The notes beneath the pieces are model-generated. The model saw only the letters and a program-made list of their open reading frames with translations. It had not been told where the DNA came from and made no database searches. Shown piece after piece: positions 1-63,503 of a DNA stretch of 64,000 bases. Position 1 is the first letter of the stretch; each line of letters begins with the position of its first letter. This DNA is from Proteocatella sp. Lineage in GTDB: Bacteria; Bacillota; Clostridia; Peptostreptococcales; Filifactoraceae. The translations under genes and the position numbers were made by a program. The DNA lies in assembly GCA_041738345.1 (NCBI GenBank), contig JBGSPX010000031.1, forward strand, positions 62-64,061. The letters run 5' to 3'.

Positions 1-730
1 CAAAACCGAACTAAATCAAAATCTTAGTATTGGAATCGACTTAGGAGTTAGCGATTTAGCTACAATAAGTTGTTTAGAAAATCCAATAAAAAACATTAAT
101 AAAACAAAAAAAGTTAGGAAGTTAAAGAAGCGACTGAAAAGATTACAAAGACAGGTTTCAAGAAAATATGAAGCAAATAAAGACGGAAACAAATTTGTTA
201 AAACTAAGAATATAATTAAATTAGAAAAACAAATTAAACTTCTTTACAGAAAATTATCAAATATAAGAGACAATCACATACATCAAACCACAGCAAGTGT
301 AATTAAATTAAAACCATATAGAGTAGTTATGGAAGATTTAAATGTAAGAGGAATGATGAAAAACAAACACTTATCTAAAGCGATACAAGAACAAAAATTC
401 TATGAATTTATACGTCAGATGAAGTATAAATGCGAGTTTAATGAAATTGAATTTGTTCAAGCAGATAGGTTTTATCCATCATCAAAAACTTGTAGCTGTT
501 GTGGAAACATTAAGAAGAATTTAAAACTTAAAGACAGAGTGTATAAATGTGAAAAATGTAATTTGATAATAGATAGAGATAAGAATGCTTCAATTAATCT
601 TGGAAACTATAAAATAGTATAACTTGGTAATGTAGAAAAAGTATACTATGTGTATCCTGCGTTGTGGGAGAATTTAAGTCCTTGGAGAGTTACCAAGCTA
701 AAGTAGAATAAGAAATTATTCCAAATAGAA
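1..730 (+). mobile_element. Right-hand portion of an IS200/IS605-family insertion sequence (tnpB 3' part plus right end); the left part lies outside the window
   Basis: A TnpB/OrfB frame runs in from the window edge. It is followed by ~110 nt of structured non-coding sequence with a long-range 8-bp stem (CTTGGTAA 623-630 / TTACCAAG 690-697). The exact right boundary cannot be fixed from one copy; it lies somewhere between ~700 and ~810. Confidence 0.7.
2..622 (+). CDS. tnpB: TnpB (OrfB) RNA-guided endonuclease of IS200/IS605 family, N-terminally incomplete at the window edge
   Basis: Frame 2 is open from nt 2. The translation ...SIGIDLGVSDLATIS...YRVVMEDLNVRGM...CSCCG-x17-CEKCN...DRDKNASINL gives the RuvC D/E/D triad interrupted by a CxxC..CxxC zinc finger. 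All catalytic residues are present. Confidence 0.9.
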   Translation, partial: KTELNQNLSIGIDLGVSDLATISCLENPIKNINKTKKVRKLKKRLKRLQRQVSRKYEANKDGNKFVKTKNIIKLEKQIKLLYRKLSNIRDNHIHQTTASVIKLKPYRVVMEDLNVRGMMKNKHLSKAIQEQKFYEFIRQMKYKCEFNEIEFVQADRFYPSSKTCSCCGNIKKNLKLKDRVYKCEKCNLIIDRDKNASINLGNYKIV

Positions 731-735
731 CTCGA
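600..735 (+). ncRNA. Putative omega-RNA (reRNA) scaffold / IS right end associated with tnpB
   Basis: The position (3' end of tnpB plus downstream non-coding DNA) matches where TnpB guide RNAs are encoded. A nested stem is visible (623-630 with 690-697). No covariance model was run, so the boundaries and the guide segment are inferred only. Confidence 0.35.
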
Positions 736-1784
736 TGAATAGGAAATATTATTTAGTAATAAATAACAAAAGTAAAATTTATATGTTTATAACTTTTTAT
801 AAGTTTTATGCAACGGAACCTATAATAGATGCAGAAGCACATTTACCTAAAAATATATGCCCCTTGATTAAATCAAGCTATGGCTTTGCCATAACAGATA
901 CCTGTCCATATACTTATTTTTCAGACATTATAATCGGAGAAACGACATGTGATGCTAAAAAGAAGATGTTTGAGCTTCTTGGACAAACTAAAAATGTCCA
1001 TGTTATGCAATTGCCACAATCCATAGATAGAGATTATTCTTGGGATATATGGGCAAAAGAGGTTCAACTGTTAAGAGAAAGATTAGAGAAAGAAACTGGA
1101 AAAATAATTACAGATGAAATGATAAGAGATAGTGTAAGAAAACGTAATGAATATAGAAAGCTTCATGTTGAATTTTTGGAACTTGGAAAATTAGTACCAC
1201 CACCACTTACAGGATTTGAAATGGGTACTGTGATAGATGGGCTTAACTATGAGTTTGACCTTGATGGAAAATGTGAAAAAATGAGAAAACTTATAGATAA
1301 AACGCTGGATGAATATAATAATGGAGAAGAAAGGGTAAGTAAAGAGGCAAAAAGAATATTAATAACAGGATGTCCAATGGGTGGTGTGATTAATAAAACC
1401 ATAAAGGTAATAGATCAAGAAGGTGGCGTAGTTGTCTGTTTTGAAAACTGCGGAGGTATAAAAAATGCAGGGAAGATGATAGATGAAAATGCAGAAGATA
1501 TTATAAAAGCTATATCAGATAAATACCTGTCTATAGGTTGCTCTGTAATAAGTCCAAATGAAAATAGATTTGAGCATATAAAAGAATTACTTGAGGAATA
1601 TAAAATAGATGGGGTTGTGGAAATAATACTTCAAGCATGTCATACTTATAATGTAGAATCTAAATTGATAAAAGATATTTCAAATGAAAACGGAATTCCT
1701 TATATTAGAATAGAGACTGATTACAGTACTTCTGATGAGGGGCAACTTAGAACTAGACTTGCAGCTTTTATAGAGATGCTTTAA
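735..1784 (+). CDS. BcrC/BadD/HgdB-family protein (2-hydroxyacyl-CoA dehydratase D-component / double-cubane-cluster-protein-like), probably 5'-truncated
   Basis: Family-typical Cys-containing motifs are present: NICPLIKSSYG, GETTCDAKKKMFE, ITGCPMGG, CFENCGG, ILQACHTYN. The first ~25 codons (MNRKYYLVINNKSKIYMFITFYKFY) are AT-rich filler directly after the IS end, and the frame is closed by TAG at 726. Confidence 0.75.
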   Translation: MNRKYYLVINNKSKIYMFITFYKFYATEPIIDAEAHLPKNICPLIKSSYGFAITDTCPYTYFSDIIIGETTCDAKKKMFELLGQTKNVHVMQLPQSIDRDYSWDIWAKEVQLLRERLEKETGKIITDEMIRDSVRKRNEYRKLHVEFLELGKLVPPPLTGFEMGTVIDGLNYEFDLDGKCEKMRKLIDKTLDEYNNGEERVSKEAKRILITGCPMGGVINKTIKVIDQEGGVVVCFENCGGIKNAGKMIDENAEDIIKAISDKYLSIGCSVISPNENRFEHIKELLEEYKIDGVVEIILQACHTYNVESKLIKDISNENGIPYIRIETDYSTSDEGQLRTRLAAFIEML

Positions 1785-6216: not shown

Positions 6217-6256
6217 ATGATAGATAGTATGGCATAAATCCATTTATATGTATAAA

Positions 6257-6292
6257 AACAGACCTCACAAATAATATTGAAGGTCTGTTTCT
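6257..6292. terminator. Bidirectional rho-independent terminator between convergent genes
   Basis: Stem AACAGACCT (6257-6265) / AGGTCTGTT (6281-6289), flanked by A-run and T-run. Confidence 0.7.
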
Positions 6293-6310
6293 ATAATATA
6301 TTTTTGCAAT

Positions 6311-6742
6311 TTAGTTCTTATTATACTTATTACTTATATTACAAATATGTTCATGTAAAATATTCATTTGAGAATGATTATTTTTATAAAAATTAGTAAT
6401 ATCATCAGAAGAAATATTATTTTTAGGATTTGATATTGGATTTATCTTACCTAAAAAAGAATAAAATTCCTCCGAAATTTCAGGTAAGAAGCCTATTTCA
6501 ACACATTTTTTTAAACTTACAGCATATAGACTTTCATTAAAAGGTTCGCATACCGTAGTTAGACATTTTCCCATATATCTTCCAAGTAATAATCTAAATT
6601 TCTCAAATTCAAGCTCAAATAGATTTTGAGAAGCGGTACTTTTTTCATCATTATCTATTATGTTGTCAAGATTTTCAAAAACTCCATACATTTCACTTGT
6701 GATATTTAAAAGACTTTTTGAATCAAATTCAAATTTTTTCAT
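6311..6742 (-). CDS. Hypothetical 143-aa soluble protein, the only gene downstream of the cobalamin riboswitch
   Basis: Clean ORF with a TAGGAG RBS 8 nt upstream of the ATG. No TM segment, signal peptide or recognisable motif. It is predicted helical and only vaguely HI0074/HEPN-like, without Rx4-6H. Confidence 0.75.
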   Translation of the reverse strand: MKKFEFDSKSLLNITSEMYGVFENLDNIIDNDEKSTASQNLFELEFEKFRLLLGRYMGKCLTTVCEPFNESLYAVSLKKCVEIGFLPEISEEFYSFLGKINPISNPKNNISSDDITNFYKNNHSQMNILHEHICNISNKYNKN

Positions 6743-6811
6743 AAAAACACACTCCTATCTCTCGTAGAATCATGATTAGATAATTTAGGCAGTTCTTCTG
6801 GTTTAAGAATC

Positions 6812-6928
6812 AACATTTTTTTCAGCCTTCCCGTTTCCAGTGGCATAATTTGAAAAAAACTACTCTATTACAGCGGCGGGACCACGCAGGATTTTCACCT
6901 GACTTCTCTTTTAATTAAAAATAAACCT
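6812..6928 (-). promoter_or_regulatory. Cobalamin (B12) riboswitch aptamer
   Basis: The minus strand reads AGAGAAGTCAGGTGAAAATCCTGCGTGGTCCCGCCGCTGTAATAGAG...GCCACTGGAAACGGGAAGGC. This is the conserved core (GGTGAAAATCC / CCCGCCGCTGTAA) plus the B12 box (GCCACTG...GGGAAGGC). Confidence 0.85.
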
Positions 6929-6948
6929 AAATAAATATTTATAAATAC

Positions 6949-6976
6949 ATTATATCATTATAAAATATTATGTCAA
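6949..6976 (-). promoter_or_regulatory. Sigma-A promoter for the riboswitch leader
   Basis: On the minus strand: TTGACA (6976-6971), 16-nt spacer, TATAAT (6954-6949). Confidence 0.6.
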
Positions 6977-6990
6977 ATACAATACTTTGC

Positions 6991-7476
6991 TTATATTTGC
7001 TTTTTGAAATTCATGTACTTGTTTACTAAAGTAGCGACAGCAATACCTATAAAGGTTTCAACAACTCGGCTTATAGGGTATATGTCGTTGTCTCCATATA
7101 TTCTATGAGTAGTTTGCATACTTATAAAAACCACGCAGCATATAGATACAGATGAAGGAACTTTTAATAGTACACATAGTTTAATCAGAAATATTATTCC
7201 AAGCGGAACTAAAAATAAATAACTTTTAGGTCCAAGTAAATTTTCTCCAATATAATATACAAAAAAACCTACTACACCAGCAATCGCAGTTCCAATTATA
7301 CGATGTTTTCCTGATTTTATAGTGTCTTCAACAGTGGGCTGCATACATATAACTGAGGCAATGCATGCATAAAATGGATTTTCTAGCTTCAATAGTTCAA
7401 AAATTAGTAAATCTATAAATACAGCAGTGGCGGTTTTTATATTTCTCATACCTATTTTTAATATTTTTTTTTGCAT
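6991..7476 (-). CDS. Aromatic-acid-exporter (ArAE)/FUSC-like membrane protein, short form (membrane domain only)
   Basis: The N-terminus IGMRNIKTATAVFIDLLIFELL...NPFYACIASVICMQPTVEDTIKSGKHRIIGTAIAGVVG is typical of UPF0421/ArAE proteins, with 4-5 predicted TM helices. At 161 aa it is about half the usual length. Confidence 0.7.
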   Translation of the reverse strand: MQKKILKIGMRNIKTATAVFIDLLIFELLKLENPFYACIASVICMQPTVEDTIKSGKHRIIGTAIAGVVGFFVYYIGENLLGPKSYLFLVPLGIIFLIKLCVLLKVPSSVSICCVVFISMQTTHRIYGDNDIYPISRVVETFIGIAVATLVNKYMNFKKQI

Positions 7477-7648: not shown

Positions 7649-9034
7649 ATGAGAACTAAGGTAAAAACTAATGAATGTATAAGTTCAAAAACATTTTTAG
7701 ATTCCATAATACATTCTACAAACGAAATGGTGGTACTTGTAAATATAGAGGGCTACATAGAAGAAATAAGTGAAGCCTATGCAGATTTCTTAGGAATAAG
7801 AAGAGAAGTAGCGATAGGAAGACCTGTTGGTGAAGTTATAGAAAATACAAGGCTTATAGATGTAGTTAATACAGGGGTGCCAGAAATAGAATCGACGCAA
7901 AAGATAAATGGAAAAAATATGATAGCAACTAGAATGCCTATAAAAGAAGATGGGAGAGTTGTAGGTGCATTTGGAAGAGTTTTATTTAAAGATATAGATG
8001 ATTTAAAAAAACTATATGAAAAAATAAATAAAATGACTACAGAGTTAAATCTTTACAAGAGCCGATTCATAAAAATGAATTCATCAAAATATAATTTAGA
8101 AAATATAATTGGTACGAGTAAAAGTATTAAAAATCTTAAAAAAACTATAAATATCATAGCGAAAACAAATTCCAATGTATTAATACTTGGAGAAAGTGGT
8201 ACCGGAAAGGAACTTTTTGCACATTCAGTACATAGCTCAAGTAAAAGAAAAGATAAACCATTTATTTGCATAAATTGTGGCTCTATACCACCAGAGCTTA
8301 TAGAATCGGAACTTTTTGGGTATGAAGAAGGGGCATTTACTGGAGCTAAAAAAGGTGGGAAAATAGGTCTTTTTCAAGCTGCAAATTCGGGAACTATATT
8401 TTTAGATGAAATAGGAGACCTTCCTATGGCGATGCAGGTCAAATTGCTTAGATTTTTGCAAGATAGAGAAATTCAAAAAGTGGGTTCAAATGTCAGAGAA
8501 CAAGTAGATGTTAGAATCGTTGCAGCAACTAATAAAAATTTAGAAAATATGGTTAGAAATGGTGAATTTAGAGCAGATTTATATTACAGGTTAAATGTTA
8601 TAACCATTGAAATACCTCCGCTTAGAGTAAGAAAAGAAGATATCTCGCCGCTTGCAGAATTTTTAATAACAAAACTTTCAAATAAAGAGGAATTAAAAAC
8701 TAAAAAAATCTCCGATAAAGCTTTGGACTGCTTAAAAACATATGATTGGCCTGGAAACGTAAGAGAATTAGAAAATGTACTTGAAAGAGCTATAAATTTT
8801 TTAGGAGAAGACCATATTATACTTCCAGAACATCTTCCTAAATTTTTAACAGGAATAGATTCTTCTCAAGACTGTTCAAAAAAATTAAAAGATATAGTTG
8901 ATGATGCCGAAAAAAATGCTATAGTAAATTCACTTATACATAATAATAACAACAAGAGTAGTGCCGCCAATGCTTTAGGAATAAGTAGAACAAGTCTTTA
9001 TGAAAAAATGAAAAAATATGGAATTAATGAATGA
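7649..9034 (+). CDS. Sigma-54-dependent transcriptional activator (PAS - AAA+ - Fis-type HTH)
   Basis: Walker A GESGTGKE, the sigma-54 contact loop EGAFTGA (GAFTGA motif), Walker B FLDEIGD, R-finger region, C-terminal HTH (AANALGISRTSLYEKMKKYGI) and an N-terminal PAS-like region. The RBS is GGGAGGG. Confidence 0.9.
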   Translation: MRTKVKTNECISSKTFLDSIIHSTNEMVVLVNIEGYIEEISEAYADFLGIRREVAIGRPVGEVIENTRLIDVVNTGVPEIESTQKINGKNMIATRMPIKEDGRVVGAFGRVLFKDIDDLKKLYEKINKMTTELNLYKSRFIKMNSSKYNLENIIGTSKSIKNLKKTINIIAKTNSNVLILGESGTGKELFAHSVHSSSKRKDKPFICINCGSIPPELIESELFGYEEGAFTGAKKGGKIGLFQAANSGTIFLDEIGDLPMAMQVKLLRFLQDREIQKVGSNVREQVDVRIVAATNKNLENMVRNGEFRADLYYRLNVITIEIPPLRVRKEDISPLAEFLITKLSNKEELKTKKISDKALDCLKTYDWPGNVRELENVLERAINFLGEDHIILPEHLPKFLTGIDSSQDCSKKLKDIVDDAEKNAIVNSLIHNNNNKSSAANALGISRTSLYEKMKKYGINE

Positions 9035-18641: not shown

Positions 18642-18684
18642 GGAAAAATGTGGTATCTTTATAGAGTATGCAAATTTAATATAA

Positions 18685-18905
18685 TCCTTTGATGAGAAAA
18701 GTAGAAATACAATAGCCTTTATAGAGAACCAAGAATGGTGGAAGCTTGGTATGGTTTGATTTCGAATAGAAACTTTGAGGATGCTTTAAAAAAATAAAAA
18801 GTACGGGTCATTCACGTTATAGAATATAGAGTGGGCATTATGCCAAAAAGAGTGGTAACACGGGAAGATCTCGTCTCTTTATTATAAAGAGACGAGTTTT
18901 TTTAT
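18685..18905 (+). promoter_or_regulatory. T-box leader (Arg-specific, probable AGA specifier) controlling argS
   Basis: Stem I elements are present (GATGAGAAAAGTAG, AGAGA, AATGGTGGAAGC). The candidate specifier is GAAT-AGA-A. The T-box sequence AAAGAGTGGTAACACGGG is followed by the terminator CTCGTCTCTTT/AAAGAGACGAG plus T7. Confidence 0.85.
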
Positions 18906-41001: not shown

Positions 41002-41057
41002 AAAAACTATTGAAAAATCAGCATATTTATTATATGATTAATAAGAATATAATAAAT

Positions 41058-41267
41058 TGCAGTGAAGAGGATGAGTAGTTTTATAATTTGCTTACAGAAA
41101 AGAGATGGTTGATGAGAATCTCTACAAAATATAAAGTGAAGCTACCTTGGAGTTTATCTGAAAAAGAGATACGTTGATTACGTTATAATCTTGAGATGTT
41201 CAGTTTGGACAAGTAAGGTGGTACCGCGAAAATTCGCCCTTATGAGGTTTTTCTCATAAGGGTTTTT
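41058..41267 (+). promoter_or_regulatory. T-box leader (Ala, GCU specifier) controlling alaS
   Basis: Stem I with AGAGA and the specifier loop GTGAA-GCT-A. The T-box sequence AAGGTGGTACCGCG is followed by the terminator CCCTTATGAG/CTCATAAGGG plus T5. Confidence 0.9.
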
Positions 41268-63417: not shown

Positions 63418-63503
63418 GCCGATGTGGCGGAATGGCAGACGCAGCGGACTCAAAATCCGCCGCCCTCAAAAGCGTGTGGGTTCGAGTCCCACCATCGGCA
63501 CCA
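63418..63503 (+). tRNA. tRNA-Leu (anticodon CAA), type II with long variable arm, CCA encoded
   Basis: The cloverleaf folds by hand. Acceptor GCCGATG/CATCGGC, D-arm GCG/CGC, anticodon stem GCGGA/TCCGC with loop CT-CAA-AA, a 15-nt variable arm, T-arm GTGGG-TTCGAGT-CCCAC, then ACCA. Confidence 0.95.

What the first reader, a model, noticed from the sequence alone, without database searches (positions are those of the whole stretch)
6311..6976. Cobalamin riboswitch whose only cargo is an orphan 143-aa soluble protein
On the minus strand a near-consensus promoter (TTGACA-16-TATAAT) is followed by a textbook B12 aptamer. The aptamer has the core AGAGAAGTCAGGTGAAAATCCTGCGTGGTCCCGCCGCTGTAA and the B12 box GCCACTGGAAACGGGAAGGC. 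The only gene it can regulate is 6742-6311, which ends at a bidirectional terminator.

That protein has no TM helix and no signal peptide. It shows no motif of B12 transport (BtuBFCD, BtuG, CbrT), corrinoid salvage or biosynthesis. It also does not look like a B12-independent isozyme (MetE, NrdDG/EF), and those are the usual cargoes.

It looks all-helical and only faintly like HI0074/HEPN four-helix bundles, without an Rx4-6H motif. I see no intrinsic terminator in the expression platform, so control is probably at the RBS (TAGGAG). This is a candidate new member of the B12 regulon: a chaperone, a corrinoid-binding or remodelling factor, or a B12-sparing function.
Basis: partly seen in the sequence, partly recalled or inferred. 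Interest (0 to 1): 0.7.

Follow-up and report, generated by a model that had tools for sequence, protein, structure and literature searches.

The report
B12 riboswitch controlling a dead HEPN toxin
A genuine vitamin-B12-sensing RNA switch controls a single small gene whose product is a relative of a bacterial RNA-cutting toxin that has lost its cutting residues; the same pairing recurs in three groups of Clostridia, so it is probably an unrecognised part of the B12 response.

Summary
Window 6771-6945 (-) is a full-length class-I cobalamin aptamer (RF00174, 95.7 bits; gathering score 31.5). A 12/12 sigma-70 promoter lies upstream. The only gene downstream is the 143-aa ORF 6311-6742 (-), which ends at a strong terminator.

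The ORF is a real gene (dN/dS 0.04-0.18). It is soluble and acidic, and has no Pfam, NCBIfam, PADLOC or PDB sequence match.

An exhaustive search of 1.84 billion representative proteins found a tiny family with two clades:
- Clade B has the canonical Rx4HxY motif and follows a minimal nucleotidyltransferase gene, so it is a HepT/MntA toxin-antitoxin pair. It has no riboswitch.
- Clade A contains the window protein (Proteocatella) and two Clostridium lineages. It has lost R, H and Y and has no MNT partner.

Every clade A locus fetched carries a homologous cobalamin riboswitch, in three different genomic contexts. Profile comparison of the clades (98.8%, E 7e-17) and Foldseek (HEPN toxins, TM 0.64-0.74) establish the HEPN fold.

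Most likely the protein is made only when AdoCbl is scarce and acts by binding rather than by cutting RNA. Its partner and role are unknown. This is a new cargo class for a known riboswitch.

The parts
6949..6976 (-). Sigma-70 promoter: -35 TTGACA (6976-6971), 16-nt spacer, extended -10 TGATATAAT (-10 hexamer 6954-6949)
   Evidence: 12 of 12 consensus matches with TG. Both hexamers are invariant in six orthologous leaders.
6771..6945 (-). Class-I (AdoCbl-type) cobalamin riboswitch aptamer, full length with the P6 extension
   Evidence: RF00174, 95.7 bits against a gathering score of 31.5, model 1-189/189. Orthologous leaders score 96-104 bits.
6825..6844 (-). B12 box GCCACTGGAAACGGGAAGGC
   Evidence: Read directly. 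Aligned to the GCCACUG...GGGAAGG core of RF00174.
6875..6883 (-). P5/L5 hairpin GGUCCCGCC, the usual kissing-loop partner of L13 (inferred)
   Evidence: Position in the RF00174 alignment. Nearly invariant across leaders. The kissing interaction itself was not tested.
6748..6774 (-). P13-like hairpin CAUGAUUCUA-CGAGAGA-UAGGAGUGUG, whose 3' arm contains the SD: the expression platform
   Evidence: Invariant in the Proteocatella-clade leaders. RNAalifold hairpin of 10 pairs. The same element is the 3' hairpin of Rfam model RF01482 and follows the aptamers upstream of cbiK- and hemA-like genes. Alone it folds at only -4 kcal/mol, no better than shuffles.
6752..6756 (-). Shine-Dalgarno AGGAG, 9 nt before the ATG
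   Evidence: Sequence.
6311..6742 (-). 143-aa soluble acidic protein: HepT-like HEPN fold with the Rx4HxY motif lost (N101, P106, N108)
   Evidence: ORF and translation. dN/dS 0.04-0.18. AlphaFold2 pLDDT 81.9. Foldseek top hits are HEPN toxins, TM 0.64-0.74. hhalign to the Rx4HxY clade gives 98.8%, E 7e-17. Motif columns.
6251..6295 (.). Hairpin terminator shared with the convergent nitroreductase gene (arms 6290-6281 and 6265-6256, 15-nt loop, U-run on the minus strand)
   Evidence: -23 kcal/mol, z -7.0 (minus strand); -16.3 kcal/mol, z -5.1 (plus strand).
6991..7476 (-). Upstream neighbour: 161-aa ArAE_1/FUSC_2 membrane protein. Context only; syntenic in the Proteocatella clade and absent from the two Clostridium lineages
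   Evidence: Pfam ArAE_1, E 4e-22. Synteny. Different neighbours.

Best explanation
A sigma-70 promoter drives a monocistronic mRNA whose leader is a class-I (adenosylcobalamin-type) cobalamin riboswitch. When AdoCbl is plentiful the aptamer folds. The hairpin that follows P1 (P13-like) is then locked, presumably by the usual L5-L13 kissing loop. Its 3' arm contains the Shine-Dalgarno sequence, so translation is blocked. In the Clostridium orthologues the same hairpin is followed by an intrinsic terminator instead. The gene is therefore expressed only when B12 is scarce.

Its product is a 16.6-kDa cytosolic HEPN-fold protein that descends from a HepT-type RNase toxin of a HEPN/MNT toxin-antitoxin pair. 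It has lost the catalytic Arg and His, the Tyr that the antitoxin AMPylates, and the antitoxin gene itself. It therefore most likely works as a non-catalytic binding or regulatory protein during B12 limitation, with a protein partner such as a Pol-beta-type nucleotidyltransferase, or RNA.

Shown: the riboswitch, promoter and terminator; the fold and homology; loss of the motif; purifying selection; the strict and recurrent riboswitch linkage.

Inferred: the OFF logic; the kissing-loop mechanism; that the protein is not an RNase; what it binds.
For: Riboswitch and transcription unit.

The gene is real and constrained: dN/dS 0.04-0.18 over dS up to 1.6.

HEPN descent:
- A profile of the family finds only four further representative clusters among 1.84 billion proteins. 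Two of them carry RDLASHGY or RNRTAHGY.
- hhalign of clade A against clade B gives 98.8%, E 7e-17.
- Clade B members hit Pfam HepT-like (6 of 8) and NTase_sub_bind (5 of 8) below threshold, and PDB HEPN toxins 8yuf/8xdj at E 0.015.
- All four clade B lineages examined (six loci) follow an NTP_transf_2/Polbeta gene.
- The AlphaFold2 model's best Foldseek hits are HEPN toxins 7ae6, 7ae9, 7bxo, 8xdj and 5yep, then HI0074 1jog.

Motif loss: alignment columns. The replacing loop is not conserved between the three clade A lineages. Clade A is uniformly acidic with 1-4 Arg, against 8-12 Arg in clade B.

Linkage: all 24 clade A loci with enough upstream DNA carry RF00174. None of the six clade B loci does. 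The upstream genes differ between lineages: ArAE_1, DUF4269, cardiolipin synthase. The leaders are homologous beyond the generic aptamer.

OFF logic: the same P13-spacer-terminator platform precedes cbiK- and hemA-like B12 biosynthesis genes. Cobalamin riboswitches are described as OFF switches (PMC11477304).

Precedent: motif-less HEPN domains are read as non-catalytic binders (MtlR) or as regulatory subunits of nucleotidyltransferases (PMC3710099).
Against: - No experiment supports the model, and the ON/OFF direction is argued only by analogy.
- The P13-like hairpin is weak on its own (-4 kcal/mol, no better than shuffles). It is too conserved to show covariation.
- Minimum-energy folds also allow the P1 3' strand to pair with the SD region, so the platform logic is not settled.
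- Some HEPN proteins without the motif are still toxic (PMC3710099), so loss of Rx4H does not prove loss of activity.
- No binding partner is identified. The window lineage has no nucleotidyltransferase neighbour.
- The acidic pI argues against simple RNA binding.
- The family is tiny, so its role may be niche.
- A natural deletion of the gene exists, so it is dispensable in some strains.
Confidence: 0.55

Rival explanations
1. The protein is still a toxin, with a non-canonical nuclease site or translation-blocking RNA binding. The riboswitch replaces the antitoxin: B12 keeps the toxin silent, and B12 starvation switches it on to arrest growth.
For: It descends from a HepT toxin and has no antitoxin gene. 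Tight OFF control by a metabolite could substitute for one. HEPN proteins that lack the motif have scored as toxic in screens (PMC3710099). Class II HEPN/MNT toxins also lack Rx4H (PMC7641770).
Against: R, H and Y are all lost, and the replacing loop differs in each of the three lineages. That looks like decay of the site rather than remodelling. The protein is acidic and poor in Arg. An unguarded toxin behind a leaky riboswitch should be counter-selected, yet the gene is under steady purifying selection.
Confidence: 0.15
2. The protein is a cytosolic corrinoid- or nucleotide-binding helper (chaperone, storage or remodelling factor) that works directly on B12 or its precursors.
For: B12-repressed genes usually serve B12 supply (PMC11477304). 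The HEPN fold was first described as a nucleotide-binding domain. Clade A has its own invariant polar residues that clade B lacks: E66-P67-x-N69 and H132. These could form a ligand site or supply an axial His.
Against: No similarity to any known corrinoid-binding fold or adenosyltransferase appears among the top 50 Foldseek hits or in Pfam/NCBIfam. No cob, cbi or btu genes are adjacent in any of the three contexts. Whether the clade-specific residues cluster in space could not be checked.
Confidence: 0.12
3. The pairing is a functionless relic. A decaying toxin gene happens to lie behind a riboswitch that once served another gene.
For: The family is tiny. One lineage has deleted the gene together with most of the aptamer.
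Against: dN/dS is 0.04-0.18. The aptamer is intact at 96-104 bits in every lineage. The linkage survived divergence to 36% protein identity and three changes of genomic context.
Confidence: 0.05
4. The 143-aa protein is the detached cytosolic C-terminal domain (ArAE_1_C) of the upstream 161-aa ArAE_1 membrane protein, split from it by insertion of the riboswitch.
For: The upstream gene encodes only the membrane domain. The soluble helical protein lies where, from my recollection of full-length family members (not tested here), a C-terminal domain would be. This order is conserved in the Proteocatella clade.
Against: No ArAE_1_C hit even at E <= 1. No ALMT or FUSC cytosolic domain appears among the Foldseek hits. 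There is a strong profile link to MNT-associated HEPN toxins. The two Clostridium lineages have no ArAE_1 neighbour.
Confidence: 0.03

Closest known systems
HepT/MntA (HEPN/MNT) type VII toxin-antitoxin systems (S. oneidensis SO_3166/SO_3165, Aphanizomenon and Legionella HEPN-MNT; PMC7641770, PMC11586414)
   Same: Same fold and demonstrable homology. The nearest sequence relatives are Rx4HxY proteins encoded just after an MNT gene. The best structural matches are these toxins. Size is similar, about 140 aa.
   Different: Catalytic R and H and the AMPylated Y are replaced (N101, P106, N108). There is no MNT gene. The gene is monocistronic behind a cobalamin riboswitch. The protein is acidic and Arg-poor. 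It is not a member of the toxin-antitoxin system as defined.
Cobalamin riboswitch regulon (RF00174: btuB/btuFCD, cbiMNQO, cob/cbi operons, metE, nrd)
   Same: The RNA is a standard class-I aptamer with a B12 box and a P13-type platform. The same platform precedes cbiK- and hemA-like genes in related metagenomic Clostridia.
   Different: The cargo belongs to none of the known classes (transport, biosynthesis, salvage, B12-independent isozymes). No paper in the searched library holds both 'cobalamin riboswitch' and HEPN.
Non-catalytic, domesticated HEPN domains: MtlR mannitol-operon regulator; HEPN modules of GlnE/GlnD and kanamycin nucleotidyltransferase (PMC3710099)
   Same: A HEPN fold that has lost the Rx4-6H motif and is tied to metabolic regulation rather than to conflict. 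In one subclade a Pol-beta-fold nucleotidyltransferase (DUF4269) lies immediately upstream.
   Different: No sequence membership in those families (no MtlR, KNTase_C or GlnE hit). It is not fused to a nucleotidyltransferase. Regulation is by a riboswitch.
B12 riboswitches whose output is a trans-acting regulator (EutX/Rli55 sRNA in Enterococcus and Listeria, AspocR antisense RNA). Cited from my own knowledge, not verified here
   Same: The riboswitch output would be a regulator or binder rather than an enzyme or transporter of B12 supply.
   Different: Those outputs are non-coding RNAs. Here the output is a conserved protein under purifying selection.

Membership tests
Cobalamin riboswitch (Rfam RF00174, class I) | Covariance-model score at or above the gathering score over the full model | tested here: met
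   95.7 bits against 31.5, model 1-189/189, E 1.4e-22.
Cobalamin riboswitch (Rfam RF00174, class I) | B12 box and P6 peripheral extension | tested here: met
   GCCACUGGAAACGGGAAGGC at 6844-6825, aligned within the P6-extension part of the model.
Cobalamin riboswitch (Rfam RF00174, class I) | Lies in a 5' leader between a promoter and a gene, with an expression platform | tested here: met
   Promoter 6976-6949. The SD sits in the 3' arm of the P13-like hairpin. Orthologues have a terminator platform.
Cobalamin riboswitch (Rfam RF00174, class I) | Binds AdoCbl and represses the downstream gene | not testable with these tools
   Needs in-line probing or ITC and reporter assays. The OFF direction is inferred by analogy (PMC11477304).
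HEPN superfamily | HEPN helical-bundle fold | tested here: met
   Model pLDDT 81.9. HEPN toxins fill 16 of the first 20 Foldseek PDB hits (17 with the DUF86/HEPN protein YutE, 1ylm), TM 0.64-0.74, probability 0.93-1.0. hhalign to the Rx4HxY clade gives 98.8%. Foldseek E-values are weak (0.2-1).
HepT toxin of HEPN/MNT (type VII TA) | Rx4-6H catalytic motif | tested here: not met
   R->N101 and H->P106 in the alignment with RDLASH and RNRTAH relatives. Only the P0010 lineage keeps the R.
HepT toxin of HEPN/MNT (type VII TA) | Tyr of RX4HXY that MntA AMPylates | tested here: not met
   Y->N108. Motif definition from PMC7641770.
HepT toxin of HEPN/MNT (type VII TA) | Adjacent MNT antitoxin gene with GSX10DXD | tested here: not met
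   The upstream gene in the window is ArAE_1. tblastn with an MNT finds nothing in the window. One subclade has a DUF4269 nucleotidyltransferase with GTx10DxD upstream, but it is not an MNT family member.
HepT toxin of HEPN/MNT (type VII TA) | RNase activity and toxicity | not testable with these tools
   Needs expression and cleavage assays.
Known B12-regulon cargo (Btu/Cbi transporters, cob/cbi enzymes, PduO/CobA adenosyltransferases, MetE, Nrd) | Profile match to any of these families | tested here: not met
   The only Pfam match at E <= 1 is an insignificant DUF4004 hit (E 0.15, 12.9 bits against a cut-off of 27), and there is no NCBIfam match. None of these families appears among the first 50 Foldseek hits.
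ArAE_1 C-terminal domain (PF11728) | Profile match to ArAE_1_C | tested here: not met
   No hit at E <= 1. The association with ArAE_1 is limited to one lineage.
MtlR-type non-catalytic HEPN regulators | Sequence membership in the MtlR family | tested here: not met
   No MtlR hit in Pfam. The resemblance is functional and architectural only (PMC3710099).

The most novel reading that the evidence does not exclude
The riboswitch's output is a domesticated pseudo-toxin that acts in trans. It would be made only when AdoCbl runs out. It would then bind a Pol-beta-type nucleotidyltransferase (DUF4269 or MntA-like) or a resident HepT/MntA pair, as a decoy substrate or regulatory subunit. Vitamin B12 status would thereby be coupled to protein nucleotidylylation or to toxin-mediated growth control. 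That would be a new way of extending a riboswitch regulon through a toxin-antitoxin-derived protein.
Probability: 0.15. Interest if true: 0.8.

Novelty: new variant of a known kind. Interest (0 to 1): 0.6.

Why it matters
Genes behind cobalamin riboswitches have repeatedly led to new B12 biology, because the riboswitch is a reliable label for 'needed when B12 is scarce'. Here the label sits on a protein class never linked to B12: a HEPN toxin homologue stripped of its catalytic and regulatory residues.

If the protein is a regulator or a partner of a nucleotidyltransferase, it would show how a toxin-antitoxin component is recruited into vitamin homeostasis. It would also give a rare case of a riboswitch whose product acts in trans.

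The case is directly testable with a small soluble protein and a compact leader. One of the three host lineages includes a named species, Clostridium culturomicium. The family's narrow distribution limits its general importance.

Tried and rejected
- **Split ArAE_1 gene.** I considered that the 143-aa protein is a detached ArAE_1_C domain. There is no Pfam hit and no ALMT- or FUSC-like Foldseek hit. The Clostridium lineages have no ArAE_1 neighbour. Rejected.
- **Sequence-only links to solved structures.** phmmer and a family profile against the PDB gave only noise. The HEPN link came from the exhaustive profile search, hhalign and Foldseek instead.
- **PADLOC defence models.** No hit for clade A.
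- **Cargo-specific leader element.** The post-P1 element AATTCTACGAGRGATRGRAG is not specific to this cargo. It also follows aptamers upstream of cbiK- and hemA-like genes and is the 3' hairpin of RF01482. It is the general P13 module.
- **Covariation for P13 or the L5-L13 kissing loop.** The element is too conserved to test.
- **Deriving ON/OFF logic from thermodynamic folds.** AU-rich, low-energy structures allow several pairings. Inconclusive.
- **DUF4269 as an MntA family member.** hhalign is not significant, although the fold is Pol-beta nucleotidyltransferase.
- **Literature.** No paper in the searched library holds both 'cobalamin riboswitch' and HEPN, or riboswitch, HEPN and B12 together.
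Full report

Yes. cmscan against Rfam 15 places a full-length cobalamin aptamer (RF00174) at window 6771-6945 on the minus strand. It scores 95.7 bits against a gathering score of 31.5 (E 1.4e-22) and covers model positions 1-189 of 189.

The core lies at 6909-6868 and the B12 box at 6844-6825. A perfect TTGACA-16-TATAAT promoter with an extended -10 TG lies at 6976-6949.

The next ORF on that strand is 6742-6311, 143 aa, with AGGAG nine bases before the ATG. After its stop codon a hairpin folds at -23 kcal/mol (z -7.0) with a U-run. The same hairpin folds at -16.3 kcal/mol (z -5.1) on the other strand, facing the convergent nitroreductase gene. The unit is therefore monocistronic. No intrinsic terminator lies between the aptamer and the start codon.

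**2. Is the ORF a gene, and is it an orphan?**

Five orthologues from related metagenomic contigs are 71-93% identical. Pairwise dN/dS is 0.04-0.18 at dS up to 1.6, which is clear purifying selection.

The protein is acidic (pI 5.2) and hydrophilic, with no transmembrane segment. It has no significant match in Pfam, NCBIfam, PADLOC or PDB sequences.

The word-indexed search of 5.8 billion proteins found only nine clusters, all at least 71% identical. An exhaustive HMMER profile search of 1.84 billion representatives found only four more clusters. A broader profile raised the total to 19 clusters. The only names the sources give are 'hypothetical protein', in Clostridium culturomicium (WP_040193181.1) and Clostridium sp. 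UBA1056 (WP_346888171.1). The single genome-collection hit is a Proteocatella MAG, so the window most likely comes from Proteocatella or a close relative.

**3. What is the protein?**

The family splits into two clades.

- **Clade B** (P0012, P0013, P0015-P0020) carries RDLASHGY or RNRTAHGY (P0016 has Leu in place of the His). This is the RX4HXY signature of HepT toxins (motif definition in PMC7641770).
  - In all four lineages examined (six loci) the gene follows, usually overlapping, an NTP_transf_2/Polbeta gene.
  - Its members hit Pfam HepT-like (6 of 8) and NTase_sub_bind (5 of 8) below threshold.
  - A clade B profile hits the Legionella HEPN toxin 8yuf/8xdj at E 0.015, with the RNxTxHxY region aligned.
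- **Clade A** holds the window protein and its Proteocatella-type orthologues, the P0010 lineage (Clostridium sp. UBA1056 type) and the P0011/P0014/P0021 lineage (C. culturomicium type).

Profile-profile comparison of clade A with clade B gives 98.8% probability, E 7e-17, over 137 columns.

An AlphaFold2 model of the window protein (pLDDT 81.9, pTM 0.80, all-helical) finds HEPN toxins of HEPN/MNT systems as its best PDB matches: 7ae6, 7ae9, 7bxo, 8xdj and 5yep, at TM 0.64-0.74 and probability 0.93-1.0. HI0074 (1jog) and YutE (1ylm) follow. The Foldseek E-values are weak (0.2-1), so the fold assignment rests on the combination of lines, not on any one.

In the joint alignment the catalytic Arg, the His and the AMPylated Tyr correspond to N101, P106 and N108 of the window protein. 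The P0010 lineage keeps only the Arg and the P0011 lineage keeps none. The replacing loop differs among the three lineages. Clade A instead has its own invariant residues, E66-P67-x-N69, P87 and H132. It is uniformly acidic with 1-4 Arg, against 8-12 Arg in clade B.

The protein is thus a HepT-derived HEPN domain whose canonical active site has decayed.

**4. Is the riboswitch link recurrent?**

Yes, and strictly so. Every fetched locus with a clade A gene and enough upstream DNA has an RF00174 aptamer just upstream, at 96-104 bits. That is 24 loci (counting the window) covering 11 clusters at 90% identity. None of the six clade B loci has one.

The neighbours differ between lineages:
- an ArAE_1 membrane protein upstream in Proteocatella;
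- DUF4269 in the P0010 lineage;
- cardiolipin synthase in the C. culturomicium lineage.

The three leaders align well beyond the generic aptamer core, including the segment after P1. The riboswitch and gene have therefore travelled together while the protein diverged to 36% identity.

**5. How is the switch wired?**

After the 3' strand of P1 all leaders carry AAUUCUACGAGRGAURGRAG. A pattern scan of metagenome contigs found the same element in three settings:
- behind RF00174 aptamers upstream of a CbiK-like and a HemA-like gene (my reading of their N-terminal sequences, not a profile match);
- as the 3' hairpin that is part of Rfam model RF01482;
- in a few unrelated chance matches.

It is therefore the general P13-type module of Firmicute cobalamin riboswitches, not something specific to this cargo.

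In the Clostridium orthologues of the HEPN-like gene the hairpin is followed by about 100 nt containing an intrinsic terminator, then UAGGAGUG and the ATG. The cbiK- and hemA-like leaders have the same layout. Those biosynthetic genes can only sensibly be repressed by B12, and cobalamin riboswitches are described as OFF switches (PMC11477304). I therefore infer OFF logic here too.

In the window lineage the terminator segment is absent. The 3' arm of the hairpin (UAGGAGUGUG) is itself the Shine-Dalgarno region, 9 nt from the ATG. The most economical reading is translational repression: ligand binding stabilises P13, classically through the L5-L13 kissing loop, and hides the SD.

This step is inferred. 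The hairpin alone is only -4 kcal/mol and no better than shuffles. It is too conserved for covariation analysis. Minimum-energy folds also permit the P1 3' strand to pair with the SD region.

**6. What does the protein do?**

This is unknown. The facts are that it is B12-repressed (inferred), cytosolic, under selection, HepT-derived, lacks the RNase motif and the AMPylation site, and has no antitoxin.

Anantharaman et al. (PMC3710099) argue two relevant points. HEPN domains without the motif act as non-catalytic binders, such as the mannitol regulator MtlR. HEPN domains have also repeatedly been exapted as substrate-binding or regulatory partners of nucleotidyltransferases.

I therefore favour a non-catalytic binding or regulatory role during B12 scarcity (confidence about 0.55 for the whole package).

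One lead concerns the partner. In the P0010 lineage the gene directly upstream of the riboswitch, on the same strand, is DUF4269 in two sublineages whose outer flanks differ. Its model (pLDDT 93.8) matches Pol-beta nucleotidyltransferases GLD-2, Cid1 and TUT7 at E 4e-5. Its invariant G44-T45-x10-D56-x-D58 mirrors the GSX10DXD signature of MntA (PMC7641770). The gene order, nucleotidyltransferase then HEPN, is that of MNT-HEPN pairs.

Several points weaken this lead:
- DUF4269 is a large family that is mostly found alone (at least 1,492 clusters).
- It shows no significant profile similarity to the clade B MNTs.
- It persists in strains that have deleted the HEPN-like gene.
- It is absent from the window.

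**7. Rivals**

- Still a toxin, released by B12 starvation: 0.15.
- Corrinoid- or nucleotide-binding helper: 0.12.
- Functionless relic: 0.05. This is contradicted by dN/dS and the intact aptamers.
- Detached ArAE_1 C-terminal domain: 0.03. This is contradicted and by the other lineages.

**8. Comparison with what is known, and novelty**

The RNA is an ordinary member of RF00174.

The protein is a member of the HEPN superfamily by fold and homology. It fails three defining features of HepT toxins: Rx4H, the Tyr, and the MNT partner. It should not be filed as one.

It matches none of the known B12-regulon cargo classes. No paper in the searched library holds both 'cobalamin riboswitch' and HEPN, and the 2013 HEPN survey mentions neither riboswitches nor cobalamin.

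I rate it a new variant of a known kind: a known riboswitch with an unprecedented cargo class, itself a new motif-less HEPN subfamily.

Interest is 0.6. The pairing is robust, unexpected and easy to test. The family is very small, however, and the function is open.

**9. Limits**

- There are no experiments.
- Only 64 kb of the genome is available, so B12 metabolism, DUF4269 and canonical HepT/MntA content of the host could not be assessed.
- Most related loci are metagenomic contigs.

Noticed in passing
L015 7009-7578 and L027 4884-5462 (-): In the P0010 lineage the gene immediately upstream of the riboswitch is DUF4269. Its AlphaFold2 model (pLDDT 93.8) matches Pol-beta nucleotidyltransferases (GLD-2, Cid1, TUT7; E 4e-5). 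It has an invariant GTx10DxD motif like that of MntA, which gives a nucleotidyltransferase-riboswitch-dead HEPN gene order. DUF4269 appears uncharacterised: only one paper in the searched library mentions it.
   Followed up: partly
L029 1330-1530 (-), and likewise L037: A natural deletion variant. DUF4269 is intact, but the HEPN-like gene and roughly the 5' two-thirds of the aptamer are gone. The 3' remnant of the riboswitch (P1 3' strand and the P13 element) remains, followed by a terminator-like hairpin. The gene is therefore dispensable in some strains.
   Followed up: partly
L023 8503-8729 and 9025-10190 (also L016, L017, L036): In C. culturomicium-type loci a second cobalamin riboswitch (84-86 bits) lies directly after the HEPN-like gene. 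It is followed by a terminator and two further orphan genes: a 71-aa protein with a signal peptide and a C-terminal transmembrane segment, and a 235-aa protein with an N-terminal zinc ribbon and one transmembrane segment. The homologous copies in L017 have no significant Pfam match. This is a second unexplained B12-regulated unit.
   Followed up: partly
L042 9417-9868 (-): Tandem cobalamin aptamers (114.7 and 82.5 bits) lie upstream of a gene I read as hemA-like (glutamyl-tRNA reductase) from its N-terminal sequence. L038 has a single aptamer upstream of a cbiK-like gene. Both use the same P13-spacer-terminator platform.
   Followed up: partly
window 6748-6774 compared with L015 7879-8000: The expression platform appears to have switched type within one orthologous leader family. 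The Clostridium versions have P13 followed by an intrinsic terminator and a separate SD. The Proteocatella version lacks about 100 nt, and the P13 3' arm itself serves as the SD.
   Followed up: partly
window 679-746 (+): A RAGATH-18 RNA motif (55.9 bits against a gathering score of 44.9) overlaps the start of the 349-aa ORF 735-1784.
   Followed up: no
window 18680-18881 (+) and 41053-41244 (+): Two T-box leaders (104 and 116.5 bits) lie upstream of a 566-aa ORF and an 876-aa ORF (the latter has the size of valS). A tRNA lies at 63418-63500.
   Followed up: no
window 6991-7476 (-): The 161-aa ArAE_1/FUSC_2 protein consists of the membrane domain only. From my recollection, full-length family members also carry a cytosolic C-terminal domain. 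It diverges from a sigma-54 activator gene (7649-9034, partial match to PrdR), which is followed by adh_short, GntP permease and 3-hydroxyacyl-CoA dehydrogenase genes.
   Followed up: partly
L015 9257-9307: The 5' end of a group II intron (RF02001, 45.6 bits) lies about 800 nt downstream of the HEPN-like gene, after the downstream Pyridox_ox_2 gene (8511-8990). That gene is on the same strand, 85 nt after the HEPN-like gene, and may be co-transcribed with it.
   Followed up: no
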